IMG/VR virus record: IMGVR_UViG_3300021399_000067 | Location: 1 to 33,235 of that record | Strand: one strand, 5' to 3' | DNA from: a virus | Length of the DNA stretch: 33,235 bases | In this document: positions 4,578 to 24,182 of the stretch, in pieces | Layout of the letters: the number at the start of each line of letters is the position of its first letter | Numbering within the stretch: position 1 is the first letter of the stretch | Notes under the pieces: generated by a model | Database searches by the model: none | What the model was told of the DNA's origin: nothing | Seen by the model: the letters and a program-made list of their open reading frames with translations, nothing else | Made by a program: the position numbers and the translations under genes

Positions 4578-4721
4578 TTATTCCTCCTTGTAAAATTCAT
4601 CATAACTTGCCTTTACATCCGGGATGGATGCGCCCAATTCCGTTAATTTATAGCACCATTCTGCCTCATCGAAATAATACCAATCTTCATTTTCCATAAA
4701 ATATGGTCTAATCTGCATCAT
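4578..4721 (-). CDS. Small hypothetical protein (47 aa, MMQIRPYFMENEDWYYFDEAEWCYKL...)
   Basis: Not in the ORF track (under 60 aa). Its ATG overlaps the MuF stop (ATGA), and its stop lies 2 nt before the next ATG. It fills an otherwise empty 140-nt gap. Confidence 0.45.
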   Translation of the reverse strand: MMQIRPYFMENEDWYYFDEAEWCYKLTELGASIPDVKASYDEFYKEE

Positions 4722-6649
4722 AATTTATAACCCTGCCTTTCCAAAAATATTCTTGTTGCCTGCCCCATAATGTTGGGATCCCCACACATCGCATTGGCAA
4801 AACATTCCGCAAAAAATTCATCATCGTTTTTCTTTCCGTAATCGGAAATACCATAAAAAATATCAATTTCATATGCGTTTAGTTCGTTTCTTGCAATATC
4901 TTCAATATCTGTGCGCATTTTTTCCGCCAATTTTTTATATGTTCCACTTGCCTGCCAATCTCCAAATTGCACGAAAACAGTTTTTTTGTATTCTTCGGAT
5001 CCTATTATATATCTACTTGCAAATATATGGCCATATTCATGCGTTACGCCATATGTTTGGTAATAATCCTCCGATATTGGCATGGACCATTTAGATGCCA
5101 TTGTACTCATTGTTTCACTTATTATTTTTTCCTTGTTTTTAGTGTAATACTGTTTTGAAAATGTTAGTTTTTCGGGACCACGCAACAAATGTTGTTGCAC
5201 CTCGGCCACAAATGTGGCAGGCCTATATTCCAAATCCATCCCATCCGTTAATTTTCCAAATATATTGTTTAATTCTGATAACCTATTAACATTATTACAC
5301 AATAATTCCTCATCAAGATTGTTTATAAAATCATCGGATACGGATTTAAAACCCAAATCGTTTTTGAGAATATCCACCGCATCTTGCCTGTTTTGGGCAA
5401 CCCTCCATTTTGGTGGTTCGGATTGTTGTGTGTTTCCCGGTTGTTTGTTGTTAATCGGTTGTGATGTAATTTCAGATATTGGCAACGGTTCGGGAATAGT
5501 GGCCGTTGTGTTGTTTTTTGCCTCCTGCGCTTTTCGGTATGCCTCCGCCTCGCGTGATTCAATTTCCCCGGAATCAAGTTTCTTTTTGCGCTCCAATGCG
5601 CGGCGTTGCTCATCCACTTTGTATTCCATAACACCTGTGGCATCCTTATCGCCAACCCAATCATTATAGAATTCTTCACGCATCATTTTTTCGTATAATT
5701 CATCATCCCGGGAATGGTCAATCCCGGGTAAAAACGAATTAACACGGCACCTGCAATTATATATTTGCTCGGGATCCCCTTTTGGATCCGCAGGAAATCG
5801 CAGTAAATTGCCTGTTGGGATGATGCCCTCCCCATATAATCCCTTTTCGTTGGGTAATGTACCATGTAACATTAAATGGGTATCACGGGTGTTATCCGCC
5901 ATTAACGCCATCCATGGTTCCTGCATGGGGATGCCTGCATCTTGGATTTTCTTTGTGGCATCACGCCGCCCCTCATTTTGTACGGCCGTGTATGCCGTGC
6001 GTGCGGTTCGTGTTGCGGCGTTTTTATCCATGTTTACAATCGGTAATAGTCTTTTGGATATATTGGGGATGGAATCGCCTTGTAATATACCCTGTGCAAT
6101 GGCGTTTTGGATGTGTTTTCGGTTCCACGCCTTATCCGCCGGGATATTAACCTCGGGTGGTTGCCATGGTATTAAATCGGGATCCTCGGTCAATATTATG
6201 CGCATGGCCTCGGTATTGTAGATGGAAAACGATGCATAATTATATCCTGCGGCCTGTGCCATCAATTCGCCTTTGAATCCTGCGAAATTATATCCATTAC
6301 AGTAAACACCGGGTAAATCATTATTAATCATGGCAATGGCCAATTTATCGGTGTTTACCATATCATTGGTCAATTTTTCCACCTGCGCACTCATTTGTTG
6401 CGTGCGCATAATCTTATTAAATCGCCATTTGGTGTATTCATCCTCCGAAATCAGATTGTTTTCTAATTTCTCACGCATTTTGGCATCGGCAATTGCATAT
6501 TGCTCCATGTAGGAAAATAGATTTTCGCTCAATTCTTCCGCCGCATCCCGATATACCCGGTTTATGCGCTTTTCCAATTCCTGCAAGGCATCATCTGCCA
6601 TTTGCATGCCATAATCCATTTCGCTATTAAACCGTTTAAGTGTTGCCAT
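4718..6649 (-). CDS. Minor head protein (MuF / SPP1 gp7 family) fused to a C-terminal zinc metalloprotease domain (HEYGH ... DEFFAECFA, anthrax lethal-factor-like gluzincin motif)
   Basis: 643 aa. The N-terminal two thirds carry MuF hallmarks, including YNCRCR. A Pro/Gln-rich linker follows. HExxH is encoded at 5027-5041 and EFFAE lies about 70 residues later. The gene follows the portal gene. Confidence 0.8.
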   Translation of the reverse strand: MATLKRFNSEMDYGMQMADDALQELEKRINRVYRDAAEELSENLFSYMEQYAIADAKMREKLENNLISEDEYTKWRFNKIMRTQQMSAQVEKLTNDMVNTDKLAIAMINNDLPGVYCNGYNFAGFKGELMAQAAGYNYASFSIYNTEAMRIILTEDPDLIPWQPPEVNIPADKAWNRKHIQNAIAQGILQGDSIPNISKRLLPIVNMDKNAATRTARTAYTAVQNEGRRDATKKIQDAGIPMQEPWMALMADNTRDTHLMLHGTLPNEKGLYGEGIIPTGNLLRFPADPKGDPEQIYNCRCRVNSFLPGIDHSRDDELYEKMMREEFYNDWVGDKDATGVMEYKVDEQRRALERKKKLDSGEIESREAEAYRKAQEAKNNTTATIPEPLPISEITSQPINNKQPGNTQQSEPPKWRVAQNRQDAVDILKNDLGFKSVSDDFINNLDEELLCNNVNRLSELNNIFGKLTDGMDLEYRPATFVAEVQQHLLRGPEKLTFSKQYYTKNKEKIISETMSTMASKWSMPISEDYYQTYGVTHEYGHIFASRYIIGSEEYKKTVFVQFGDWQASGTYKKLAEKMRTDIEDIARNELNAYEIDIFYGISDYGKKNDDEFFAECFANAMCGDPNIMGQATRIFLERQGYKL

Positions 6650-12899: not shown

Positions 12900-13463
12900 T
12901 TATGGGACGGTTACGAAATAATTGCCGCCGTAATATCCATATGCCGTGCCGTAATTGTAACCGCTATTGTTGAAGTACAGGACGTGCGGCGCATCCCCTG
13001 CCTGCCATTCCTCGTATGCCTCAATCACGGCCGCATCTGATATGTTTGTTCTATCGGCCACCACGGATCCATTGGATACAACCTCAAATTGCCCCGATTG
13101 ATTGCAAACGCCTGTGATTGTGTCCGGGAACGAATCGGATTCGTATGCCCTGTTGATAATAACCTCCGCAATCAATATCCTGCCTTGGTATGAATCCGCA
13201 TCGGATCCCCTGTCCGATTCTGCCTCCACCACGGAGGAAATCAAGATAAATTCTTCGGTTGTCATGCCGATGGATGCCGCCTTTGCCTCAATTGGTGCCT
13301 CGTATCGTTCTAATTCTGATAATCCGTTCCACCATACGAGGAACGCCACCAACGGGATTGTAATTGCCTTAATCATCATCGTTAGGGGATTCCTGCGGTT
13401 CCTGCGTATCGGGTACATAATGGGGACACGCATTTTTCGCGCAATCTTTGCATTCAAATTCAC
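12900..13463 (-). CDS. Membrane-anchored SleB-like cell wall hydrolase (Hydrolase_2 family)
   Basis: Basic N-terminus plus TM segment (IKAITIPLVAFLVWW). Catalytic-domain pattern ...EAESDRG...LIAEVIINRAYESDSFPDTITGVCNQSGQFEVV.... The GTG start is uncertain; internal ATGs are possible. Confidence 0.7.
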   Translation of the reverse strand: MNLNAKIARKMRVPIMYPIRRNRRNPLTMMIKAITIPLVAFLVWWNGLSELERYEAPIEAKAASIGMTTEEFILISSVVEAESDRGSDADSYQGRILIAEVIINRAYESDSFPDTITGVCNQSGQFEVVSNGSVVADRTNISDAAVIEAYEEWQAGDAPHVLYFNNSGYNYGTAYGYYGGNYFVTVP

Positions 13464-16703: not shown

Positions 16704-16736
16704 TCAAAAACCGCAGGAACCGAAATCCCTGCGGTT
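16704..16736 (-). terminator. Intrinsic terminator AACCGCAGG-10 nt-CCTGCGGTT followed by TTTTT
   Basis: 9-bp stem at 16709-16717/16728-16736 followed by a T5 run on the minus strand. Confidence 0.7.
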
Positions 16737-16774: not shown

Positions 16775-16803
16775 ATTATATATCAACCGCGCAATTTGTT
16801 CAA
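16775..16803 (-). promoter_or_regulatory. Near-consensus promoter TTGAAC-17-TATAAT followed by the conserved box CGTGTTACA
   Basis: -35 at 16798-16803 (inside the end of CDS 16783..17085) and -10 at 16775-16780. The terminator lies only about 40-70 nt downstream. Confidence 0.6.
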
Positions 16804-17085
16804 CGCGGCATCGTATAACCGGGGTTGAAAAGCACGGACCGTTTCCATCACCTCATCAATCACGGGCCATACTTTGGATGCATCTTTGCCGTGAACCATC
16901 TGCAAGAATTCCGAATTCCCATTAACATTAATCACTACTTCCCGGGATGATGCTTGCATCGGTTCGGATCCATACATGTGGTCGAGAAGAATATAAAAGG
17001 TTGCCAATTTCTCGCAATCTTGGTATGTTGCGCACGAATTCTCCAATTCGTCTATGGCATCCAATAATTGCGGTTTGGTCAACAT
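16783..17085 (-). CDS. Hypothetical protein (100 aa)
   Basis: ORF with RBS; last gene of the 19931->16783 cassette. Confidence 0.55.
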   Translation of the reverse strand: MLTKPQLLDAIDELENSCATYQDCEKLATFYILLDHMYGSEPMQASSREVVINVNGNSEFLQMVHGKDASKVWPVIDEVMETVRAFQPRLYDAALNKLRG

Positions 17086-17088
17086 GGA

Positions 17089-17538
17089 TTATTCCTCCAT
17101 GCGCCTAATGATTTTCTGCAATGCCCTGCGTTCATCCTCGGATGATACCTCGGACATCATGTCGCGCAGGATTTGCACCTTTTCTTCGTTGCCATCATCG
17201 TATGAATAACCATCGTTACGCGAATATCTACCACGGCCACCGCGTGCGGACGGATAACCGCCCTCGCGCGAATATCTGCCCATGGAATCCCTGCGTGCAT
17301 TGGATCCACGGCCGCGTGCGTTGGAATAACCGCGATTTGTCATGCCGTCCATGCCATCTGCGTTCGAATATTCGCCATCCTCGGAATATTCCTCGTACAT
17401 GATAATCTTGCATGAATTCTTGATGGAATTTAACAGTTTGTCGATTGTTTCCAAACTCCCGGCGGACAATTCGCCCTTGCGCACGATTTCGTCCAATTCC
17501 TTTTTGAGCATGTCTTTAACATCGTAATATGTGTGCAT
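17089..17538 (-). CDS. Hypothetical protein with helical ends and an Arg/Gly/Tyr/Ser-rich disordered core
   Basis: 149 aa; RBS AAAGGAGGAACCGAAGATG; low-complexity core ...RGYSNARGRGSNARRDSMGRYSREGGYPSARGGRGRYSRNDGYSY... Confidence 0.55.
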   Translation of the reverse strand: MHTYYDVKDMLKKELDEIVRKGELSAGSLETIDKLLNSIKNSCKIIMYEEYSEDGEYSNADGMDGMTNRGYSNARGRGSNARRDSMGRYSREGGYPSARGGRGRYSRNDGYSYDDGNEEKVQILRDMMSEVSSEDERRALQKIIRRMEE

Positions 17539-17556: not shown

Positions 17557-18015
17557 TTAAGCGATTCGCGTAATTACGAGATTTGCATTTTTCAAATTGA
17601 TGGATGCGGGCGGCGTTGTCGCAGGATCCTCAACCGTTGCATCGATATAACGGACCGATGCGGCAAAACAACACCCCTTGGGGATGGTCACGATGGCCGT
17701 GGCCGTTATATTGCCGTATTCGTCCACCGCCTGCGGCGTGAATATCGCCGTGGATGTAACCCGGGGTTCGCCATCAACGGCAATTGCCATTGCTATTGGC
17801 GCAACATCCTCGCCCTCCGGGATTGCGATATTTCCGTTAAAGGTCAATTGATACCTTGCGAAACAATTGTTGTTGCATGTCCTGCCACGCAAAATAAAAA
17901 TCCCTGTTTCATCCTCATGGTACACATTGCCATTGGGGCATGGGATAGAGGCCGTAAATAATGCCGGGGCATTCAACGCAATGGATTGAACGGCATTTGC
18001 CAAATATTCTGCCAT
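17557..18015 (-). CDS. Hypothetical beta-rich Cys-containing protein (152 aa)
   Basis: RBS AAGGAGGTGTAATCCATG. By eye the pattern is reminiscent of TNF/C1q-like jelly-roll spore-surface domains (BclA-C / ExsF type). This resemblance is low confidence. Confidence 0.5.
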   Translation of the reverse strand: MAEYLANAVQSIALNAPALFTASIPCPNGNVYHEDETGIFILRGRTCNNNCFARYQLTFNGNIAIPEGEDVAPIAMAIAVDGEPRVTSTAIFTPQAVDEYGNITATAIVTIPKGCCFAASVRYIDATVEDPATTPPASINLKNANLVITRIA

Positions 18016-18028
18016 GGATTACACCTCC

Positions 18029-18838
18029 TTATCCGTTACATCCGCAACCGCAACCATTGTTGCATGTGAAAATGTTTTGACGGCCATAAACGGGAACGGA
18101 CGGAATCGGACAATTAGAAAGACGATTATACAAAGCATCGATTTCTTGATTGAATCCGTTTTGTATAAACGCATTCTGTGCCGTCTGCGATGCGGCAAGG
18201 TTTGCCATGGTCAACTGTCTTTCAAGGTCCGCGATTTTTTCGTTTTTGGCATCGATTTTATCGTTACAGATTTGGTCAAGTATTTTTTGCGTGTTTGCCG
18301 TTTGGTTCACGAGAATATCACGGATACCATCGGACACGGCCGCCCTGTCTGCGCAGGCCTCGCGTGCAATATCCGCACCGAGGTTGGCAATGCCCAACCT
18401 ATTTTCGCAACAACAATCGGCAAACTGTTGTGATAATGCGAAATTCTGTTGCATGTTGGCCATCTGCCTGCCGTTGGCGGCAATTTCTGCCTGTGCAAAT
18501 CCATTCTGCACGGTTCCTTGCATGTCTGCGCAACAATTGCATAACTGTTGTGCAAGTGATGTCACGCCGTCACGAATCGATGTGATGTTGCCATTCAACA
18601 TTTGGTCACGGAATCCATCGGATGTAATCTCCGCTTGGTTCATCCACGGATATAATCCGCCTGCGCCTCCGTTACCGCCTCCGTTGTTGAATCCGTTGCC
18701 CCATCCGCCGTTGAAAAGGCAAAGGAACAAAAGGATAATCCACCATGAACCATCCCCGCCGAATCCGTCATTGTTTCTTGAACCGCCGACAACCGCGGCA
18801 AGGTCCGCCGCGCTCATTTCGCCTGTTGTTAGTGACAT
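18029..18838 (-). CDS. Cys-rich coiled-coil protein with a double-glycine-type leader and a Gly-rich hydrophobic segment
   Basis: 269 aa. N-terminus MSLTTGEMSAADLAAVVGG matches the LSxxELxxIxGG leader consensus at -12,-11,-8,-7,-4,-2,-1. Then GDGSWWIILLFLCLFNGGWGNGFNNGGGNGGAGG. 14 Cys in clusters (CNCC, DCCCE, CNNGCGCGCNG). Confidence 0.6.
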   Translation of the reverse strand: MSLTTGEMSAADLAAVVGGSRNNDGFGGDGSWWIILLFLCLFNGGWGNGFNNGGGNGGAGGLYPWMNQAEITSDGFRDQMLNGNITSIRDGVTSLAQQLCNCCADMQGTVQNGFAQAEIAANGRQMANMQQNFALSQQFADCCCENRLGIANLGADIAREACADRAAVSDGIRDILVNQTANTQKILDQICNDKIDAKNEKIADLERQLTMANLAASQTAQNAFIQNGFNQEIDALYNRLSNCPIPSVPVYGRQNIFTCNNGCGCGCNG

Positions 18839-18902
18839 TTGTTTTTTCTCCTTTCGTTGGATTTTGATTTATATTTCCTGTTGCAACAATTGGAAATCAT
18901 GG

Positions 18903-19112
18903 TTACCGCATGTTTTTCATTTGGTTGTATATTTGGTCCGCCTGTTGGGCGTATTGATTAATTTGCGCCTGCGAAATCCTGCCCGAATTAAGCATGTTTT
19001 GCACCACTTGTTTGGGATTCCCGGTGAATAACCTTTTGAATTCCATCAATGTTTGCATCATGTTGTTGCTCGGCATCTTCGGTCCCAATTGATTGAATAA
19101 TGGTGATGGCAT
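18903..19112 (-). CDS. Hypothetical Gln/Asn-rich helical protein (69 aa)
   Basis: Compact ORF tightly linked to its neighbours. Confidence 0.5.
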   Translation of the reverse strand: MPSPLFNQLGPKMPSNNMMQTLMEFKRLFTGNPKQVVQNMLNSGRISQAQINQYAQQADQIYNQMKNMR

Positions 19113-19115
19113 GGT

Positions 19116-19544
19116 TTATCCCTCCGCGTGTTCGGATCCATCAAGGATTCCGTTTATATCCTTTGTGATTTTTGCCTTGAATGCATCGAATTCCGAACGC
19201 GGCACATAATCGGGATTTGTCCCCGGTTTGTCCCCAACATGTCCCCGGTTTGTCCCCGATTGTTCGCGCTCCTTATAATCGAAGATACGCAGGGGCAACG
19301 GCATGCCGCTTTGGTCCATTGACTTGATGTAAAAAACGGATTCCTCCGAATCCATCAATAAAGCAGATTGTCCCGATGCCACGGGATGCGATTTCGCGGC
19401 CGCCTCGCCTTGAACCCATGTAATCCCATTGTTGGATGTGGTAACGCCGTTTTGGGGCATCTGTGCGCCCTGTGGCGGCATCTGCGGCGTTGGCACCATA
19501 TACATTGGATTGTAAAACTGTGGAATGTAATTGTTATATGCCAT
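19116..19544 (-). CDS. Hypothetical protein (142 aa; Pro/Gln-rich N-terminus, conserved-looking core WVQGEAAAKSHPVASGQSALLMDSEESVFYIKSMDQSGMP)
   Basis: ORF with RBS; contains an 18-bp perfect direct repeat at 19218-19235 and 19240-19257. Confidence 0.55.
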   Translation of the reverse strand: MAYNNYIPQFYNPMYMVPTPQMPPQGAQMPQNGVTTSNNGITWVQGEAAAKSHPVASGQSALLMDSEESVFYIKSMDQSGMPLPLRIFDYKEREQSGTNRGHVGDKPGTNPDYVPRSEFDAFKAKITKDINGILDGSEHAEG

Positions 19545-19550
19545 TTGGGT

Positions 19551-19931
19551 TTATTCCTCCTTTTCCCAAAAATACAAAAGAATCTCCGAACCCGAATCCC
19601 ACGAATCAAAATAGGATCCGTTCTCGATGCAACATACATGCCCTTGCGATGCAACGACATATGTTCCTTTTGGATGGTCCTTGGCGAAATCTGCGATGGT
19701 GATGCATGCCGGGCAAATGGATGGAACCATCTTTTGTTCAAATCCGTGTTTCCGCAGGAACATGCCCCACACATAATTGGCGGACGGCATGTCATGGTAA
19801 AATAACCCCTCGGCGCACAACCCAACGTATGCATCTTCCCAATCTTTGTTCAATGCCTTGGCAATCGCACGAACGGCGCAATCGCCCACCCTTTGATTGT
19901 TTGGATTCGGATTATAACGAACGTATGCCAT
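19551..19931 (-). CDS. Putative papain-fold Cys-His hydrolase (126 aa)
   Basis: Trimmed to the ATG at 19931 (AAGGAGGGCAGGAACC upstream). Candidate catalytic NQRVGDCAVRAI and QGHVCCIENGSYFDSWDSG motifs. Confidence 0.5.
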   Translation of the reverse strand: MAYVRYNPNPNNQRVGDCAVRAIAKALNKDWEDAYVGLCAEGLFYHDMPSANYVWGMFLRKHGFEQKMVPSICPACITIADFAKDHPKGTYVVASQGHVCCIENGSYFDSWDSGSEILLYFWEKEE

Positions 19932-19999
19932 GGTTCCTGCCCTCCTTGCCTTAATTGTGGCAAATGGGCAATCGATATTGAATGAATCGGAAATGCGTG

Positions 20000-20021
20000 T
20001 TTTACGCAATTTTTACGCAAT
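20000..20021 (-). repeat. Perfect tandem 11-mer ATTGCGTAAAA x2 (minus-strand reading)
   Basis: ttttacgcaat twice on the plus strand, between a terminator and the first cassette gene. Confidence 0.8.
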
Positions 20022-20052
20022 AAAACAGGGGCCGCATGCTCGCGGTCCCTGT
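20021..20052 (-). terminator. Intrinsic terminator ACAGGGACCGC-GAGCAT-GCGGCCCCTGT followed by TTTTA
   Basis: GC-rich hairpin at 20025-20052 (one A/C mismatch) plus a T tract, directly after the sigma-like gene. Confidence 0.6.
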
Positions 20053-20076
20053 CTTACAAAAAGGAGAAGAAAATAA

Positions 20077-20298
20077 TTATGGAATGTGTTTGAAGATGAT
20101 ATCTTCGCACCTTAAAACAATGTTTTGAATCTGCCTCGGGGATAAATCGAACTCATCCGCCAAATCTTCAATTAGGATCCTGTCCAACAATCTGCGTTTG
20201 ATGATGGCGCGATTCCTTTTATTGTGAATATATGAATCAATCGCACTCACAATTTGTTCGGCGGATATATCATCCCAATTATAACGAATCTTCGGCAT
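20077..20298 (-). CDS. Sigma-70 region-4-like HTH transcriptional regulator (73 aa)
   Basis: ...RNRAIIKRRLLDRILIEDLADEFDLSPRQIQNIV... resembles region 4 of sigma factors and phage late activators. Confidence 0.5.
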   Translation of the reverse strand: MPKIRYNWDDISAEQIVSAIDSYIHNKRNRAIIKRRLLDRILIEDLADEFDLSPRQIQNIVLRCEDIIFKHIP

Positions 20299-20779
20299 TT
20301 AACGCCTCTTTCGTCTGCCCCTGCGCCTCGTTACTCGTACTCGTGCCATTGTTTATGTCACCGTCCCCATTAAGATAATTGGCGATTCCCTCGCCCTCCG
20401 AATCTACATCAACGGAATAATCATCCACAATCTCGTATGTATTCCATTGGTAAATCCAATACATGTTGGACCCGACAAAAAGAATAACAAGGATGATGAT
20501 AACAATAATCAACCATCGGTTGTGCCTGTCCATCCGTGCCAATGCCGATTCAAACGCCATAAACGGCACCGCATCGTCCTTGTTTCCCATCGGATCCATC
20601 CTCCTATTTGTGATTATATCCGATGGTGGCTTGGATGGCAATGTGTCCGAGAATTCACCGCAGGATTCATGCTCCGGGAATTCAACATCACGATGGAACG
20701 GGCAATGGCCACGCATGTTCTTAATATCATCCTTGATAAAATGGATGCAATGTCCGCAAATGTCGTTTGTCTTATTCAT
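20279..20779 (-). CDS. Cys/His-rich N-terminal domain + single TM + acidic/Gly-rich C-terminal domain (anti-sigma-like topology)
   Basis: Trimmed to the ATG at 20779 (AAAAGGAGGCAAACAATG). CGHC...HCPFH...C, then TM WLIIVIIILVILFVGSNMYWIY. Overlaps the sigma-like gene by 20 nt. Confidence 0.5.
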   Translation of the reverse strand: MNKTNDICGHCIHFIKDDIKNMRGHCPFHRDVEFPEHESCGEFSDTLPSKPPSDIITNRRMDPMGNKDDAVPFMAFESALARMDRHNRWLIIVIIILVILFVGSNMYWIYQWNTYEIVDDYSVDVDSEGEGIANYLNGDGDINNGTSTSNEAQGQTKEALNAEDSL

Positions 20780-21146
20780 TGTTTGCCTCCTTTTCTGCAT
20801 CTAACATAACATATTCGTTATCAATCACCCTGCATTCAATCGTTAACCTTGTATCGCAGGAAATCCGTTGTGCCTCGAATCTGTCGTGCAATGTAACATA
20901 GACATCACAATATGTTGGTGTTGATGTCAACGATACCGTGTTAACAGAAATCGGCGCAATCACAATTTTGGGTCCTTTGTCTGTGTTAATCTTCAATCGG
21001 ATGTATGATTTTGCACCGCCCCTCTTGTTTTCACCCGTAAAATCAATGGCCATCATGTCGTAAACCTTGGATCCGCAATAAACGCATGTTCCTGCATCGT
21101 TTAGGATTCCGCCGCAATTGGGACAATTCTTCAATTGTTCAATCAT
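20772..21146 (-). CDS. Zinc-ribbon protein (124 aa)
   Basis: CPNCGG...CVYCGS N-terminus; RBS present. Confidence 0.5.
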   Translation of the reverse strand: MIEQLKNCPNCGGILNDAGTCVYCGSKVYDMMAIDFTGENKRGGAKSYIRLKINTDKGPKIVIAPISVNTVSLTSTPTYCDVYVTLHDRFEAQRISCDTRLTIECRVIDNEYVMLDAEKEANNE

Positions 21147-21396
21147 TCGTATTGCCCTCCTTTTCCGCCAAAAAGCACCATCCCTCGGGATCAGTCTTCA
21201 TATAACCATTGCCCCACTTGGTGCATGCCTCGTGTCCTGTGATTATCGGAACGCCCGGGCATGCCTCGGTAAAAACATCCTCCAAATAGTATTTGCAATG
21301 CTTGCACTTGATTAATTCCGTGGGGACCATCTCAATTGATGCCAATTTTGGTTTGTATTCGAACACCATACCATCGGGAATATCAATTCTTGCCAT
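21139..21396 (-). CDS. Small Cys-rich protein (85 aa)
   Basis: CKHCKYY...C...C; shares the conserved junction sequence at its start. Confidence 0.5.
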   Translation of the reverse strand: MARIDIPDGMVFEYKPKLASIEMVPTELIKCKHCKYYLEDVFTEACPGVPIITGHEACTKWGNGYMKTDPEGWCFLAEKEGNTND

Positions 21397-21595
21397 TGTC
21401 TGCCTCCTTTCTCATTGGTACTAAATATCCATCGGGTAAACAATCAAATAAATGTTGTAATGCATTATATGAATTAATCTGCATTGTTACCAATGGATTT
21501 TGATTGCATGTTTTCAATTCGCGTATAGCATCATTAATCGATGCTTGTATTTCATCCCGCAACCTTGGCGTTAATGGTTTATATATCGTTGCCAT
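21383..21595 (-). CDS. Hypothetical protein (70 aa)
   Basis: Trimmed to the ATG at 21595, preceded by AAAAGGAGGCAGACA. Confidence 0.5.
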   Translation of the reverse strand: MATIYKPLTPRLRDEIQASINDAIRELKTCNQNPLVTMQINSYNALQHLFDCLPDGYLVPMRKEADNGKN

Positions 21596-21770
21596 TGTCT
21601 GCCTCCTTTTCTGCACCATAGTATTTTTCCAAATCCGCCTCAACCCAACAATCGGGGCAAATAACGGGTTCATTCAATGCGATGCCCACGAAATTAAAAA
21701 GGGCATTCCCGGGAATGTGGCAATCCTCGGTTGCAAATAGGTTTTTGCAACCATAACACATCCTAATCAA
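21579..21770 (-). CDS. Small zinc-ribbon protein (63 aa, TTG start)
   Basis: TTG at 21770 has the same spacing from GGAGGCAGACA as the ATGs of neighbouring genes; CYGC...CPDC. Confidence 0.45.
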   Translation of the reverse strand: MIRMCYGCKNLFATEDCHIPGNALFNFVGIALNEPVICPDCWVEADLEKYYGAEKEADNGNDI

Positions 21771-21915
21771 TGTCTGCCTCCTTTTCGGGATCCAATACAT
21801 CCCGTGCGCCTTTTATTATTGTTTCTGCCATCTGCAATTCGCTTGCCAAATAATAGCATGCCGATGCAAGAATCATATTTAACACCATGGAACCGATAAA
21901 AAATATATAAATCAT
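21766..21915 (-). CDS. Possible 49-aa membrane peptide (MIYIFFIGSMVLNMILASACYYLASELQ...)
   Basis: ATGA overlap with the upstream stop; RBS AAGGAGGGCAATGC; not in the ORF track. Confidence 0.35.
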
Positions 21916-22298
21916 GCATTGCCCTCCTTTAACAAATCATCAAATGTTATTTGTTCCGATTCTTCAACATCGGTCAAACACCGGGGATTTTTCCATAATA
22001 TGCGATAACCGCAATTCCAACAAAAGTTATCCACGATGTCCTTTAATGTGGATCCGCAATGCCCGCAGGAATAATAATCATGTTTGCGGCCATATACACC
22101 TTTGTGGAATTTCGGTTTTGCCCCAACATATGCATCAACGACATATTGCCTTTGTGGTTCCGAGATTGCCGATGGTGCCAAATCAATTAATCCGCAATAT
22201 GCGCCTTTTTGATATTTGCACCTATCACATTCACAAATACACCGCGCCTTGAATTCCTCGCGCAATCCGTTGGCATCAATCAAGCGAATTATACTCAT
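21912..22298 (-). CDS. Double zinc-ribbon protein (128 aa)
   Basis: Trimmed to the ATG at 22298; CICECDRC...C and CGHCG...CWNCG motifs. Confidence 0.5.
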   Translation of the reverse strand: MSIIRLIDANGLREEFKARCICECDRCKYQKGAYCGLIDLAPSAISEPQRQYVVDAYVGAKPKFHKGVYGRKHDYYSCGHCGSTLKDIVDNFCWNCGYRILWKNPRCLTDVEESEQITFDDLLKEGNA

Positions 22299-22558
22299 GC
22301 CAAATATGCCTCCAATTCTGCCGCCTGCCATCTGTCCAATTCGATGGTTTCACGCTCGTAGTGATTGCCGTTCTCGGTGATGCCGCCGCCGATAAAGATA
22401 AACGCAGGAACCAACGAATATTCCTCGCCATCATCGTGTTCATCGTAACCGATACGGCACGGGATCCATTCGCCGTTGCGCTCAATCTCGCCGAATGCGA
22501 TGTGGTCGCATATGCCCGTGTGTGCCTTGATTAACCCTGTGCGTCTTACGTTCAACAT
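22295..22558 (-). CDS. Hypothetical protein (87 aa)
   Basis: Trimmed to the ATG at 22558 (AAGGAGGGCATTACAATG). Confidence 0.5.
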   Translation of the reverse strand: MLNVRRTGLIKAHTGICDHIAFGEIERNGEWIPCRIGYDEHDDGEEYSLVPAFIFIGGGITENGNHYERETIELDRWQAAELEAYLA

Positions 22559-22571
22559 TGTAATGCCCTCC

Positions 22572-22889
22572 TTAAACCTGTCCGTAATAAACAAAAACCG
22601 TGGATCCATACTCGTATGGGTCCTTGTACTTATTGAACAACCCAACATGCCGCATCAACCATGCATCTGCCTTGGCGGCCTGCGCCCTTGTCATTCCGCC
22701 ATCGGCCGTGGTAAATTCACCCTCCACATACATATCCACCTCATGCAACACCATCCACCACACATCCGCAAATGAATCGATGCAATCATCTAATGCGGCG
22801 CAGGAATAAACGCGCAACCGCTTTAATTCCTTTATGGCCTGCCTGCAATCCTCCGGGATCCGCTTTTCAAATTCGTTTCTAATGCTCAT
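22572..22889 (-). CDS. Hypothetical protein (105 aa)
   Basis: RBS AAGGAGGCACACAATG. Confidence 0.5.
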   Translation of the reverse strand: MSIRNEFEKRIPEDCRQAIKELKRLRVYSCAALDDCIDSFADVWWMVLHEVDMYVEGEFTTADGGMTRAQAAKADAWLMRHVGLFNKYKDPYEYGSTVFVYYGQV

Positions 22890-23273: not shown

Positions 23274-24182
23274 TTACTTAATAAATGAGGCAAACACGAA
23301 TCCCGTGCCATCTGCCAATTCGTACCAATCGCCCTGTTTCTCGCCCTTGATGGCAACCATGGAACCCTTGGGCAATAGACGAACAACCGGGGCATTAAGT
23401 GATGCCGTCTTGCGCACACGCAGGGGATCCCGATTCGTGGCAACGGTTCCCGTCCACACGGATGTGTTTTCCTCGGGCCTGTGGATTTTCTGCCCAACGC
23501 GGATTAAATCGGGATTGAGGATGCCGTTGTCCTTTGCAATCACGGAAACGGACACGCCCCACATCTTGGCAATCTTGGTCAACGTATCGCCTGCCTTTAC
23601 GATGTAAAAATCATCCTCCGCAGGATCCGAAGATGCCGAAGATTCCGCAGGATCCGCAGGAACGGAGGCGGATTCGTACTCAATCCCGGGAATCTTGAAC
23701 CATTCTTCCCACGCCGTATCCTTGATGCCATCCTCAATTACACCGTAATTAAAACCCTTGGCCTGCACAACCTTGCCATCGCCGATGTAAACGCCAACGT
23801 GGTTGTTCTTCCACAATCCCAATCCGGGGATTTCGGGGATGGATCCGATGGGGCCTTTTTCGGTTGCCCGGGAATGCATCACGTTTGCGGACATGTCGAA
23901 ATCCTTATTATATATCGGAGGCATCGGCATGCCGTCAACATCGGGTTCCTTGGTCATTAGATAATCCTTGATTAATCCGCCGCAATCCATTACACGTTTG
24001 CCGTAATCGCCGCGTTCCTTGGCCTGCGCGATGCGCTTGCCCGAGAATTGGGATGGATACCTCTTGGCGCAGGATTCAAGCAATTTGGGGTTGCCAATCT
24101 GCCCATACGTTCCGAACCAATACACCTGCCCCACCATCTTTTTTACGAATTTTACCAACCCGGTGTTAGTTTTCTTAGACAT
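23274..24182 (-). CDS. Endolysin: NlpC/P60-type peptidase + LysM + SH3 domains
   Basis: 302 aa. Catalytic-type motifs VMDCGGLIKDY and NNHVGVYIGDGKVV. LysM: YIVKAGDTLTKIAKMWGVSVSVIAKDNGILNPDLIRVGQKI. SH3-like C-terminus. Confidence 0.85.
   Translation of the reverse strand: MSKKTNTGLVKFVKKMVGQVYWFGTYGQIGNPKLLESCAKRYPSQFSGKRIAQAKERGDYGKRVMDCGGLIKDYLMTKEPDVDGMPMPPIYNKDFDMSANVMHSRATEKGPIGSIPEIPGLGLWKNNHVGVYIGDGKVVQAKGFNYGVIEDGIKDTAWEEWFKIPGIEYESASVPADPAESSASSDPAEDDFYIVKAGDTLTKIAKMWGVSVSVIAKDNGILNPDLIRVGQKIHRPEENTSVWTGTVATNRDPLRVRKTASLNAPVVRLLPKGSMVAIKGEKQGDWYELADGTGFVFASFIK

What the first reader, a model, noticed from the sequence alone, without database searches (positions are those of the whole stretch)
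18029..19931. Large double-glycine-leader protein with a possible stand-alone Cys protease and no ABC exporter
The 269-aa protein starts MSLTTGEMSAADLAAVVGG/SRNN.... This matches the class II bacteriocin / peptide-pheromone leader consensus LSxxELxxIxGG at -12 (M), -11 (S), -8 (D), -7 (L), -4 (V) and the GG. Such leaders are normally removed by the C39 peptidase domain of a dedicated ABC transporter, and no transporter is encoded here. Three genes upstream in the same operon, 19551..19931 encodes a 126-aa protein. It carries a Gln-x4-Cys motif (NQRVGDCAVRAI) and a later His (QGHVCCIENG...DSWDSG), which is the order expected for a papain/C39-like catalytic set. The link between the two is my inference: a phage-borne leader-processing pair acting on an unusually large, Cys-rich membrane-active cargo. 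I am not aware of a described system of this kind.
Basis: inference. Interest (0 to 1): 0.65.

Follow-up and report, generated by a model that had tools for sequence, protein, structure and literature searches.

The report
Phage membrane-fibre operon, not bacteriocin leader
The "double-glycine leader" is a variable stretch in front of a membrane anchor, not a conserved cleavage signal. The two genes belong to a widespread, uncharacterised seven-gene operon of gut and rumen Clostridia phages that also encodes a BclA/TNF-type head protein and a small papain-fold enzyme.

Summary
Both ORFs are real genes at the stated coordinates, with good ribosome-binding sites. The 269-aa protein (D) does match the double-glycine consensus in this one sequence. 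The match is not conserved. Among close homologues the residue after AAVVG is N in 57, G in 39, A in 10 and T in 4. Most of the family carries a different N-terminus (MVMPVAPMYGG). The GG lies in a Gly/Asn-rich spacer 12 residues before a hydrophobic helix.

The 126-aa protein (A) gives a confident model whose best PDB matches are papain-fold enzymes (Josephin, staphopain, the PCAT1 C39 domain), but none is statistically significant. Cys18, His98 and Asp109 are invariant. The proposed Gln is not conserved. No peptidase HMM matches A.

A and D are linked. In 86 related loci with enough flank, A accompanies D in 82 and E (17557..18015) in 83, in two different gene orders. E is a TNF/C1q jelly roll of the BclA-CTD/ExsF type.

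The unit is A-B-C-D-E-F-G, ending at a strong terminator. It sits in the accessory-gene slot after the lysis genes.

My best reading, which is inferred, is a membrane-anchored, Cys-rich coiled-coil stalk (D) with a BclA-like head (E), matured by A. It is not a bacteriocin-type export system.

The parts
20077..20298 (-). S: 73-aa small HTH / sigma-70 region-4-like protein. It precedes the cassette in about 40% of related loci.
   Evidence: Pfam HTH_23 at E 0.007, below the cut-off. The homologous 79-aa gene in L002-L004 and L171 has a precomputed weak Sigma70_r4 hit. It is present in 38 of 86 loci.
19932..20076 (-). 145-nt intergenic region upstream of A. It holds a small hairpin plus T-run after S, a direct repeat TTGCGTAAAA x2, and a palindrome TGCGT-N5-ACGCA. 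It is a possible regulatory region for the cassette.
   Evidence: Sequence read. Hairpin at 20032..20045 found. No conserved promoter motif was found across 108 related upstream regions.
19551..19931 (-). A: 126-aa soluble protein with a minimal papain-like fold and a candidate Cys18-His98-Asp109 triad (N7/N9 are invariant). It belongs to phrog_3754.
   Evidence: - PHROG match at 2e-31.
- AF2 model with pLDDT 93. C18 lies at the N-terminus of helix 18-26, H98 lies before strand 99-103, and D109 lies at the end of strand 106-109.
- The best PDB TM-scores are to Josephin-2, staphopain, ataxin-3 Josephin and the PCAT1 C39 domain, at TM 0.47-0.50, none with E<=1e-3.
- 24 BFVD matches at E<=1e-3.
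- Invariant residues in the broad alignment A4.
- No Pfam, NCBIfam or PDB sequence match.
19116..19544 (-). B: 142-aa protein with a Q/P/Y/M-rich N-terminus (MAYNNYxP...), a conserved core of about 55 aa (IxWVQGEAxAKxYxV...LxDSE..xYIKSxDxSGMP.PLRIFDY), and a helical tail. Function unknown (phrog_21718).
   Evidence: No PDB or Pfam match. It is found upstream of D in both gene orders.
18903..19112 (-). C: 69-aa Q/N/M-rich helical protein (phrog_22984).
   Evidence: Present in 59 of 86 loci. No family match.
18029..18838 (-). D: 269-aa protein of the finding (phrog_16490). It consists of a variable N-terminal tail, a Gly/Asn-rich spacer, a hydrophobic helix, a second Gly-rich spacer, a long helical Cys-rich domain (LCNCC, invariant CCC at 142-144) and a Pro/Cys-rich tail.
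   Evidence: The family has 1772 representatives at 50% identity with E<=1e-3. Only weak, non-significant coiled-coil-type matches were found in the PDB.
18782..18838 (-). D residues 1-19, the leader-like segment MSLTTGEMSAADLAAVVGG. It is a variant specific to one sub-clade.
   Evidence: - The residue after AAV[VM]G is N in 57, G in 39, A in 10 and T in 4 of the close homologues.
- Among 122 representatives at 50% identity, 24 have the ADLAAV type, 75 the MPVAP type and 23 other types. The strict motif occurs in 0.
- No NCBIfam leader model matches.
18701..18748 (-). D residues 31-46 (SWWIILLFLCLFNGGW). This is the single hydrophobic helix, bounded by Trp and flanked by Gly-rich spacers. It is a probable membrane anchor.
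   Evidence: The Kyte-Doolittle 15-residue maximum is 1.72, at windows starting at residues 28-33. It is the only such segment in the cassette. G25, W33 and G47 are nearly invariant, and W32 and W46 are also nearly invariant among the closer homologues.
18032..18124 (-). D residues 239-269, RLSNCPIPSVPVYGRQNIFTCNNGCGCGCNG. This is the most conserved part of the family, combining a Pro-rich motif with a (GC)n tail.
   Evidence: Conservation in A2, A6 and A9: R239, L240, C243, P244, P249, V250, Y251, G252, F257, C259, C263, G264, C265.
17557..18015 (-). E: 152-aa TNF/C1q-type jelly roll of the BclA C-terminal domain / ExsFA-BxpB type (phrog_20016). It lies immediately downstream of D in nearly all relatives.
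   Evidence: - AF2 model with pLDDT 85, all-beta.
- Foldseek against the PDB gave 109 hits at E<=1e-3. The top hits are F-BclA CTD 9h38 (7e-7), BxpB 8d02, ExsFA 7r1m, BclA 1wck, EDA, 4-1BBL and C1q.
- 5 of 23 family members hit Pfam BclA_C, best E 5e-7.
- Present in 83 of 86 loci.
17089..17538 (-). F: 149-aa protein with helical ends and a central R/G/Y/S-rich disordered region containing the conserved motif ARGRGxNARRDSMGRYS.
   Evidence: Alignment A8. Present in 74 of 86 loci. No family or PDB match.
16783..17085 (-). G: 100-aa protein of unknown function. It is the last gene of the unit.
   Evidence: Present in 42 of 86 loci. No family match.
16709..16736 (-). Intrinsic-terminator-like hairpin (12-bp stem, 6 GC pairs, T-run) directly after G. 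It ends the A-G transcription unit.

Best explanation
Shown:
- The two genes are parts of one self-contained accessory operon, A-B-C-D-E-F-G (19931 down to 16783, terminator at 16709..16736). It is often preceded by a small sigma-r4/HTH protein.
- The operon is conserved in a very large family of siphophages and prophages of gut and rumen Clostridia.
- It normally sits after the holin and endolysin genes. In temperate relatives it lies next to the integrase, which is the classical slot for accessory genes.
- D is not a secreted precursor. It has a short, lineage-variable N-tail, a Gly-flanked hydrophobic helix, a long helical Cys-rich domain and a conserved Pro/Cys-rich tail.
- D is almost always followed by E, a TNF/C1q jelly roll of the BclA-CTD/ExsF type.
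- A is a minimal papain-fold protein with invariant Cys18, His98 and Asp109.

Inferred:
- D forms an oligomeric (probably trimeric) coiled-coil stalk anchored in the host membrane by its single helix.
- The E trimer is its head or partner, possibly docking on D's conserved Pro-rich tail and fixed through the many conserved cysteines.
- A is the cytoplasmic maturation enzyme of the assembly. It could be a protease, or a transglutaminase-type cross-linker acting on the Gln-rich B and C proteins. B, C, F and G are low-complexity accessory or scaffold components.
- The product remodels the envelope of the infected or lysogenic cell. It does not export a toxin, and no PCAT/C39-ABC step is involved.
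For: - The operon is conserved in Butyrivibrio virus Ceridwen and Dulem viruses.
- Of 86 loci with at least 3.5 kb on both sides of D, 83 have E, 82 have A, 74 have F, 62 have B and 59 have C. The orders are (S)ABCDEF(G) and (BC)DE(F)A. DE is invariant and A moves with the set, even when the set lies in a head module.
- The position after holin and endolysin, and beside integrase and repressor, is seen.
- Terminator after G. Ribosome-binding sites.
- D domain layout and conservation. Hydrophobic helix found only in D.
- E fold and BclA_C hits in relatives.
- A fold and invariant C/H/D.
- The ExsF trimer binds N-terminal Pro-rich leader peptides of fibre proteins, and BclA loses residues 1-19 (PMC12357932). 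This is the analogy used.
- Family sizes: D and E each reach the 8000-cluster cap at 90% identity. D has 1772 representatives at 50% identity.
Against: - There is no direct evidence for a D-E contact, for oligomeric state, for topology or for any catalytic activity of A.
- E and all the other partners lack signal peptides or hydrophobic segments. If D's large domain is extracellular, E cannot reach it without lysis. If it is cytoplasmic, 14 cysteines would stay reduced.
- The hydrophobic helix is short, about 14-16 residues.
- The helical/coiled-coil nature of D rests only on non-significant PDB matches.
- HMMs for the exosporium leader do not match D's termini.
- A's PDB fold matches are all above E 0.1.
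- The A family also occurs without D or E in Bacillus, Geobacillus and Prevotella phages.
- A D-like protein occurs alone in an N4-like Vibrio phage.
- At least one host genus (Butyrivibrio) is not, to my knowledge, a spore former, so the exosporium analogy is structural only.
Confidence: 0.4

Rival explanations
1. First reader's model. D carries a class II bacteriocin-type double-glycine leader, and the stand-alone C39-like Cys protease A removes it after Gly19, releasing a large membrane-active cargo.
For: - The window sequence matches L/M(-12) S(-11) D(-8) L(-7) V(-4) GG. The strict pattern arises in 5.5e-5 of composition-preserving shuffles.
- A related LSxxD(I/V)AAVxG motif recurs in about 20% of family representatives.
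- A has a papain-like model with conserved Cys/His/Asp. PCAT1 and ComA peptidase domains are among its non-significant structural neighbours. A phage 'Peptidase C39 domain' protein matches at E 1.8e-3 in BFVD.
- A and D are syntenic in 82 of 86 loci.
Against: - The -1 residue is Asn in 57 of 110 close homologues, and Asn or Arg in most of the representatives shown. Known leaders end in GG, GA or GS (PMC6363468).
- Among the 122 representatives, 61% (75) carry MVMPVAPMYGG, whose prolines at -5 and -8 fall where known leaders have conserved consensus residues such as Glu(-8), and 19% (23) carry other N-termini.
- The GG lies in a Gly/Asn-rich spacer containing several GG pairs, 12 residues before a hydrophobic anchor.
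- The cargo is 250 aa.
- No leader HMM matches the N-terminus. No C39 or C39_2 HMM matches A. Gln13 is not conserved.
- No exporter is encoded in the window.
- The A family is common in phages without D.
Confidence: 0.06
2. D and E are virion-associated accessory fibres. D would be a coiled-coil shaft and E a C1q/TNF-type receptor-binding head. They would be made late and attached to the head or tail, with A as their maturation protease.
For: - E's fold also matches cyanophage tail-fibre and portal-tail proteins (9k09, 8ke9). C1q-like domains are described in phage tail fibres and eCIS receptor-binding domains.
- The cassette follows the late and lysis genes on the same strand.
- In Dulem virus 35 it lies between the minor and major capsid genes.
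- In type-2 loci it lies just upstream of what looks like the terminase (the 592-aa ORF was named from its sequence only, not searched).
Against: - The window already has a complete tail-tip and fibre set.
- The position relative to the structural genes is not fixed.
- The cassette has its own terminator and upstream intergenic region.
- A Gly-flanked hydrophobic helix and five low-complexity partner proteins are unusual for fibres.
- Neither E nor D matches any PHROG annotated as a tail protein.
Confidence: 0.2
3. A is functionally independent of D. It would be a general small papain-fold enzyme of phages, for example a deconjugase/DUB-like or amidase-type host-takeover or counter-defence factor. 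Its synteny with D-E would reflect a shared accessory region. D-E alone would form the membrane module, for instance for superinfection exclusion.
For: - A-family genes occur in 52 phage records (23 Bacillus, 15 Prevotella, 2 Geobacillus). D was found in none of those genera.
- In GBK2, A sits at the same junction between the late genes and the recombination module, without B-G.
- The BFVD fold family spans phages of Pseudomonas, Enterococcus, Cellulophaga, Sinorhizobium and others.
- The best PDB neighbour is a deubiquitinase, Josephin-2.
- A D-like gene occurs alone in Vibrio phage 12VC501.
Against: - A stays with D-E in two different gene orders and when the cassette sits in a head module.
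- Cassette-type A proteins form distinct subfamilies that go with the two cassette types, for example CPxC only in type 1.
- No PADLOC match.
Confidence: 0.2
4. Lysis accessory. D would be a spanin- or antiholin-like bitopic membrane protein (N-terminal TM, coiled-coil ectodomain, intermolecular disulfides) acting at the last step of envelope disruption.
For: - The gene lies shortly downstream of holin and endolysin in most loci.
- The architecture of a TM segment plus a helical Cys-containing domain resembles the i-spanin Rz. This comparison is from my own knowledge and was not tested.
Against: - The hosts are mostly monoderm Clostridia, which to my knowledge need no spanin.
- The cassette is separated from the lysis genes by up to 3 kb of small genes plus a hairpin.
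- Seven genes, including a TNF-like protein, have no counterpart in lysis cassettes.
- The Vibrio D-like gene lies near the left end of the genome record (position 4607-5200 of 70.7 kb), with no annotated lysis gene nearby.
Confidence: 0.08

Closest known systems
Double-glycine leader peptides processed by C39 peptidase-ABC exporters (PCAT/AMS; e.g. ComA, LahT, PCAT1)
   Same: The window's D N-terminus fits the L(-12)xxxE(-8)L(-7)xxI(-4)xGG pattern. A has a papain-type Cys/His/Asp, and C39 domains are among its distant structural neighbours.
   Different: - The GG is not conserved; it is mostly GN.
- Most family members have another N-terminal motif.
- The putative cargo is a 250-aa protein with a hydrophobic helix.
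- There is no ABC exporter.
- No leader HMM and no C39 HMM matches.
- The oxyanion Gln is not conserved.
Bacillus exosporium nap and F-ENA anchoring: BclA / F-BclA (C1q-like head), ExsFA/BxpB (stand-alone TNF-like trimer that binds N-terminal leader peptides), and Cys-rich ExsY/CotY
   Same: - E has the same fold as BclA-CTD, F-BclA-CTD, BxpB and ExsFA, and like BxpB/ExsFA it is a stand-alone protein of about 150 aa.
- It is paired with a Cys-rich partner.
- BclA-type assembly involves an N-terminal peptide that is cleaved (residues 1-19 in BclA) and Pro-rich docking peptides.
- All partners lack signal peptides, as in assembly within the mother cell.
   Different: - The system is phage-borne.
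- There is no collagen repeat. The stalk would be a coiled coil on a separate polypeptide with a membrane anchor.
- The exosporium-leader HMM does not match.
- The hosts include Butyrivibrio, which to my knowledge does not form spores.
- There are no ExsY/CotY homologues.
- No interaction has been shown.
Small papain-fold cysteine enzymes: Josephin deubiquitinases, staphopain, C39 peptidase domains, transglutaminase-like Cys-His-Asp enzymes
   Same: The catalytic-type Cys lies at a helix N-terminus, the His at a strand start and the Asp on the next strand. A has a compact alpha+beta fold. TM-scores are 0.47-0.50.
   Different: A has only 126 residues. No sequence-profile match was found to any Pfam, NCBIfam or PDB family, and Foldseek E-values are above 0.1. 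Its substrate and its chemistry (hydrolysis or transamidation) are unknown.
C1q/TNF-like receptor-binding domains at phage tail-fibre tips and on eCIS fibres
   Same: The same jelly-roll fold occurs in phage-encoded proteins (cyanophage A4 and A-1(L) hits).
   Different: E is a separate 152-aa protein encoded outside the tail module. It is always paired with a protein carrying a hydrophobic helix.

Membership tests
Double-glycine (class II bacteriocin / peptide-pheromone) leader | Consensus hydrophobic/acidic pattern L(-12), E(-8), L(-7), I(-4), ending in GG/GA/GS | tested here: met
   The window sequence MSAADLAAVVGG fits the strict regex, with D for E and V for I. The shuffle frequency is 5.5e-5. 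The consensus is taken from PMC6363468.
Double-glycine (class II bacteriocin / peptide-pheromone) leader | The cleavage-site residues (-2 Gly, -1 Gly/Ala/Ser) are conserved among homologues | tested here: not met
   The -1 residue is N in 57, G in 39, A in 10 and T in 4 of 110 close homologues. The strict motif occurs in 0 of 122 representatives and in 0 of 114 locus N-termini. The MPVAP-type N-terminus is the most frequent type in both sets (75 of 122 representatives; 53 of 114 locus N-termini).
Double-glycine (class II bacteriocin / peptide-pheromone) leader | Match to curated leader-domain HMMs | tested here: not met
   NCBIfam was scanned with the isolated N-terminal 31 aa and six variant N-termini at E up to 10. 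There were no hits. The full-length protein gave none either. Caveat: HMMER filters drop weak matches on short sequences.
Double-glycine (class II bacteriocin / peptide-pheromone) leader | A cognate C39-ABC exporter in the locus, and a small soluble cargo | tested here: not met
   There is no ABC signature plus Walker A pair in any frame. No window-encoded product searched matched a transporter family, and the three largest ORFs are structural. The cargo would be 250 aa, with a hydrophobic helix starting at residue 31. A host-encoded PCAT cannot be tested here.
Peptidase C39 / C39-like (PF03412, PF13529) | Sequence-profile membership | tested here: not met
   Pfam gave no hit for the window's A at E up to 1. 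No peptidase family appeared among the hits of 20 diverse members. NCBIfam gave none. The PDB profile search gave no peptidase.
Peptidase C39 / C39-like (PF03412, PF13529) | Papain-like fold with Cys on a helix N-terminus and His on a beta-strand | tested here: inconclusive
   - The model has pLDDT 93 with C18 at the start of helix 18-26 and H98 before strand 99-103.
- The best PDB TM-scores are to papain-fold enzymes, including PCAT1 (0.47). All have E>0.1, and Josephin-2 scores higher.
- In BFVD, a 'Peptidase C39 domain' phage protein matches at E 1.8e-3.
Peptidase C39 / C39-like (PF03412, PF13529) | Conserved catalytic Cys and His (plus Asp) and an oxyanion Gln upstream of the Cys | tested here: inconclusive
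C18, H98 and D109 are invariant down to 21% identity. N7 and N9 are invariant and could take its role.
BclA C-terminal domain / TNF-C1q-like (protein E) | Jelly-roll fold matching BclA-CTD, ExsFA and BxpB | tested here: met
   AF2 model with pLDDT 85. Foldseek gave 109 PDB hits at E<=1e-3. The top hits are 9h38, 8d02, 7r1m, 1wck and 3tyj, at TM 0.63-0.68.
BclA C-terminal domain / TNF-C1q-like (protein E) | Pfam BclA_C (PF18573) profile match | tested here: inconclusive
   The window's E has no hit. 5 of 23 family members hit, with best E 5e-7. The L018 member scores 17.9 bits against a cut-off of 38.
BclA C-terminal domain / TNF-C1q-like (protein E) | Trimeric assembly and attachment to a fibrous stalk | not testable with these tools
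   No multimer prediction was available. The stalk role of D is an inference.
Exosporium leader peptide (TIGR03720-type docking motif) | HMM match of D's N- or C-terminal Pro-rich motifs | tested here: not met
   No NCBIfam hit for seven N-terminal and two C-terminal peptides. Only one rare member (P0403, IQPTLPLAP) looks similar by eye.

The most novel reading that the evidence does not exclude
The A-G operon is a phage-borne, self-assembling surface or coat system built on exosporium/ENA-type principles. It would combine a BclA/ExsF-type trimer, a Cys-cross-linked stalk protein, low-complexity matrix proteins and a dedicated papain-fold maturation enzyme (protease or transglutaminase). Thousands of gut and rumen Clostridia phages would use it to remodel the envelope of the infected or lysogenic cell. 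That would make it a new class of phage accessory module.
Probability: 0.2. Interest if true: 0.75.

Novelty: new variant of a known kind. Interest (0 to 1): 0.45.

Why it matters
The specific claim of a large double-glycine-leader protein with its own stand-alone leader peptidase does not hold, so no new bacteriocin-type export route is indicated.

What remains is still useful. It is a discrete six-to-seven-gene module with no assigned function. D has 1772 representatives at 50% identity, and D and E each exceed 8000 clusters at 90% identity. The module is confined largely to phages and prophages of gut and rumen Clostridia and sits in the accessory-gene slot.

It now has three structural handles: a BclA/ExsF-type trimer, a protein with a hydrophobic anchor and a Cys-rich helical domain, and a papain-fold Cys-His-Asp enzyme. 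If the parts form an envelope-associated assembly, this would be a common and unrecognised way in which phages modify the surface of dominant gut anaerobes.

The isolated phage Ceridwen and its Butyrivibrio host, plus a prophage in the isolate Butyrivibrio sp. INlla21, make this experimentally testable.

Tried and rejected
- **Family searches for A-G.** Pfam, NCBIfam and PADLOC gave nothing above threshold for any window protein. PHROGs gave only families of unknown function.
- **PDB by sequence.** I searched with A as a single sequence and as a profile, and with profiles of B, D, E and F. Nothing was significant. D gave only weak coiled-coil-type matches (topoisomerase I linker, ZorA tail).
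- **Endolysin in bajarodcaudo virus 5.** I tested whether its 'C39-like family peptidase' is an A-domain fusion. It is not: BLASTP E 17, and it matches Pfam Peptidase_C39_2 in its own right.
- **CPxC motif in A.** I considered that C73-P-x-C76 with C18 and H98 could form a zinc site rather than a catalytic set. I rejected this as a family feature, because CPxC is missing from type-2, Bacillus and Geobacillus members while C18, H98 and D109 stay invariant.
- **Exosporium-leader idea for D's termini.** No HMM support.
- **Promoter upstream of A.** I looked for a conserved motif in 108 related loci and found only T-rich terminator tails.
- **SleB-type hydrolase.** It co-occurs with the cassette within the fetched flanks in only 2 loci by tblastn, plus L173 and Ceridwen by annotation. 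This is too sparse to use.
- **Literature.** Searches for phage papain-like early proteins, BclA-like phage cassettes and Ceridwen proteomics found nothing relevant.

Full report
**Setting.** The window is a tailed-phage genome or near-genome with every convincing gene on the minus strand. Reading in the direction of transcription, it encodes:
- tape measure and tail proteins (33154 down to 24701);
- an NlpC/P60-LysM-SH3 endolysin (23274..24182);
- about 3 kb of small genes;
- the region of the finding;
- a Gp157/Gam-like gene, a replication initiator, large terminase, portal, a head-morphogenesis/minor head protein and the major capsid protein.

**The observation.** Both ORFs exist as described. 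D (18029..18838, 269 aa) starts at an ATG preceded by AAAGGAG. A (19551..19931, 126 aa) starts at an ATG preceded by AAGGAGG, and its homologues are also about 126 aa. A, B (19116..19544), C (18903..19112) and D are consecutive.

D's first 19 residues fit a strict double-glycine-leader pattern. That pattern arises in only 5.5e-5 of shuffles of residues 2-31. D has 14 cysteines and the only TM-grade hydrophobic segment in the cassette.

No ABC exporter is encoded. There is no Walker A plus LSGGQ pair in any frame. No window-encoded product I searched matched a transporter family, and the three largest ORFs are structural.

**Is it a leader?** No, judged by conservation. The family is very large. 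It reaches the 8000-cluster cap at 90% identity and has 1772 representatives at 50% identity with E<=1e-3.
- Among the 110 close homologues that keep MSLTTGEMSAADLAAV(V/M)G, the next residue is N in 57, G in 39, A in 10 and T in 4.
- Among 122 full-length representatives at 50% identity, 75 carry a different N-terminal motif (MALTDE...MVMPVAPMYGG), 24 carry the LSxxD(I/V)AAVxG(N/G/R) type and 23 carry other types. The strict pattern occurs in none.
- The 114 unique N-termini from fetched loci gave the same picture.
- Known leaders end in GG, GA or GS, with L(-12)xxxE(-8)L(-7) upstream (PMC6363468). Asn at -1 and prolines at -5 and -8 do not fit this.
- The GG sits inside a Gly/Asn-rich spacer with several further GG pairs, 12 residues before the conserved Trp-bounded hydrophobic helix WWIILLFLCLF..W.
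- NCBIfam has no match for the isolated N-terminus at E up to 10.

The conserved parts of D lie elsewhere. They are the Gly-flanked helix, the motifs YPWMNQ, LCNCC and an invariant CCC(E/D)xR, a helical region giving only weak coiled-coil-type PDB matches, and the tail NCP(V/I)PxxPVYGxxPIFTC...GCGCGC.

**Protein A.** With a 54-sequence alignment AF2 gives pLDDT 93. Foldseek against the PDB finds nothing at E<=1e-3. Every hit with a meaningful TM-score is nevertheless a papain-fold enzyme:
- Josephin-2 (TM 0.50, probability 0.82);
- staphopain (0.48);
- ataxin-3 Josephin (0.48);
- the PCAT1 C39 domain (0.47);
- further down the list, with lower TM-scores (0.23-0.35), the ComA peptidase domain, PRRSV Nsp1 and TssM.

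Against viral models there are 24 hits at E<=1e-3 from phages of many hosts. These include a protein annotated as a C39 domain (1.8e-3) and a Josephin-domain protein (9e-3).

I built a broad alignment of cassette type 1, cassette type 2, Bacillus phage Tsamsa gp15 and Geobacillus GBK2 gp35, reaching down to 21% identity. It leaves N7, N9, D17, C18, R21, W31, L59, H98 and D109 invariant. C18 starts a helix, H98 precedes a strand and D109 ends the next strand, which is the papain-type arrangement. No Pfam, NCBIfam or PDB sequence profile matches.

A is therefore a plausible Cys-His-Asp enzyme from an unclassified family. Membership of C39 is not shown. Hydrolase and transamidase chemistry cannot be told apart here.

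**Linkage.** The same genes occur in the same order in Butyrivibrio virus Ceridwen, and also in Dulem viruses 33 and 35 with extra genes interspersed. I fetched 170 loci from IMG/VR, GTDB genomes and phage records and searched them with iterated HMMs. Among the 86 loci with at least 3.5 kb on both sides of D, the counts are E 83, A 82, F 74, B 62, C 59 and G 42.

Two arrangements exist: (S)ABCDEF(G) and B-C-D-E-x-F-A (for example L018). D-E adjacency is invariant, and A moves with the set. A stays near the cassette even in Dulem virus 35, where the cassette lies between the minor and major capsid genes. The A-D link is therefore real at the level of gene neighbourhood.

The A family is nevertheless much wider than the cassette. 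It occurs in 52 phage records, including 23 Bacillus, 15 Prevotella and 2 Geobacillus, and D was found in none of those genera. A D-like gene occurs alone in an N4-like Vibrio phage.

**Protein E.** The gene directly after D (17557..18015) gives an all-beta model with pLDDT 85. It has 109 PDB matches at E<=1e-3. The list is led by the F-BclA C-terminal domain (9h38, 7e-7), B. anthracis BxpB (8d02), B. cereus ExsFA (7r1m) and BclA (1wck, 3tyj). EDA, 4-1BBL, C1q and cyanophage fibre domains follow. Five of 23 family members hit Pfam BclA_C, with best E 5e-7, although the window's own E does not. E is a stand-alone TNF/C1q jelly roll of the BclA/ExsF kind.

**The unit and its place.** A 12-bp-stem terminator follows G at 16709..16736. 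A 145-nt intergenic region with a small hairpin precedes A. In relatives the cassette follows the holin and endolysin genes. In temperate ones it is the last block before the integrase and repressor on the opposite strand. That is the usual position of phage accessory genes.

Assigned hosts are overwhelmingly gut and rumen Clostridia, such as Ruminococcus, Lachnospiraceae, Acutalibacteraceae and Butyrivibrio. Most are MAG contigs of phage size, and one is a prophage in the isolate Butyrivibrio sp. INlla21.

**Mechanism (inference).** D is probably a single-pass membrane-anchored, oligomeric helical stalk, and E its trimeric head or partner. The numerous conserved cysteines in both proteins (in E: C26, C51, C115, C116) would supply cross-links or metal sites. 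A would mature a component.

The nearest described logic is the Bacillus exosporium and F-ENA system. There the stand-alone TNF-like trimer ExsF binds Pro-rich N-terminal leader peptides of fibre proteins, BclA loses residues 1-19, and Cys-rich proteins form the lattice (PMC12357932). This is an analogy of parts, not membership:
- the exosporium-leader HMM does not match D;
- D has no collagen repeats;
- at least one host genus (Butyrivibrio) is not, to my knowledge, a spore former;
- topology is unresolved, because none of D's partners has an export signal.

I put this reading at about 0.4. The virion-fibre rival and the independent-A rival are each at about 0.2.

**Verdict.** The genes and the local motif are real, but the double-glycine-leader interpretation fails its own conservation test. 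The peptidase-like nature of A and its linkage to D are supported in weaker form. What is there is an uncharacterised, very common accessory operon of Clostridia phages that can now be approached through structure.

Noticed in passing
window 12900..13463 (-): A second cell-wall hydrolase lies outside the lysis module. It matches Pfam Hydrolase_2 (SleB/CwlJ spore-cortex-lytic type) at E 5.8e-15. Ceridwen has a PF07486 'putative lysin', and locus L173 has a Hydrolase_2 gene upstream of its cassette.
   Followed up: partly
window 19932..20076 (-): The 145-nt intergenic region upstream of A holds a hairpin plus T-run after the sigma-r4-like gene, a direct repeat TTGCGTAAAA x2, and a palindrome TGCGT-N5-ACGCA. 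It may be an operator or promoter. No shared motif was found in 108 related upstream regions.
   Followed up: partly
window 20077..20298 (-); L002:8419-8658, L171:8712-8909: A small 65-79-aa protein with weak Sigma70_r4/HTH similarity precedes the cassette in 38 of 86 loci. It may be a dedicated regulator.
   Followed up: no
L018:3742-5061 (type-2 loci): In the alternative gene order B-C-D-E-x-F-A, at least in L018 (the one locus read in full), the cassette is preceded by a 439-aa polytopic membrane protein and two small TM proteins. It is followed by a gene on the opposite strand that looks RuvC-like and by what looks like the terminase (both named from sequence only, not searched).
   Followed up: no
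L010:3848-4441 (Vibrio phage 12VC501 gene0008): A 197-aa D-like protein (Gly-rich spacer, hydrophobic helix, CCC(D)xR motif, coiled-coil segment) occurs alone near the left end of an N4-like Vibrio phage genome, without A or E. The D core therefore extends to phages of a Gram-negative host.
   Followed up: partly
window 17089..17538 (-) and relatives (alignment A8): Protein F carries a highly conserved ARGRGxNARRDSMGRYS motif inside an R/G/Y/S-rich disordered region, between two conserved helices. It could be a cleavage, docking or nucleic-acid-binding site.
   Followed up: no
window 20279..22648 (-): There is a run of small ORFs, several with CxxC...CxxC zinc-ribbon-like motifs (for example 20772..21146, 21139..21396, 21912..22331), between the lysis genes and the cassette. 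None has a family match.
   Followed up: no
P0403 and P0374 (D-family representatives), N-termini: Rare D variants carry IQPTLPLAP or IQPTVELA N-terminal motifs. By eye these resemble the BclA-type exosporium leader IGPTLPPIPP. There is no HMM support.
   Followed up: partly
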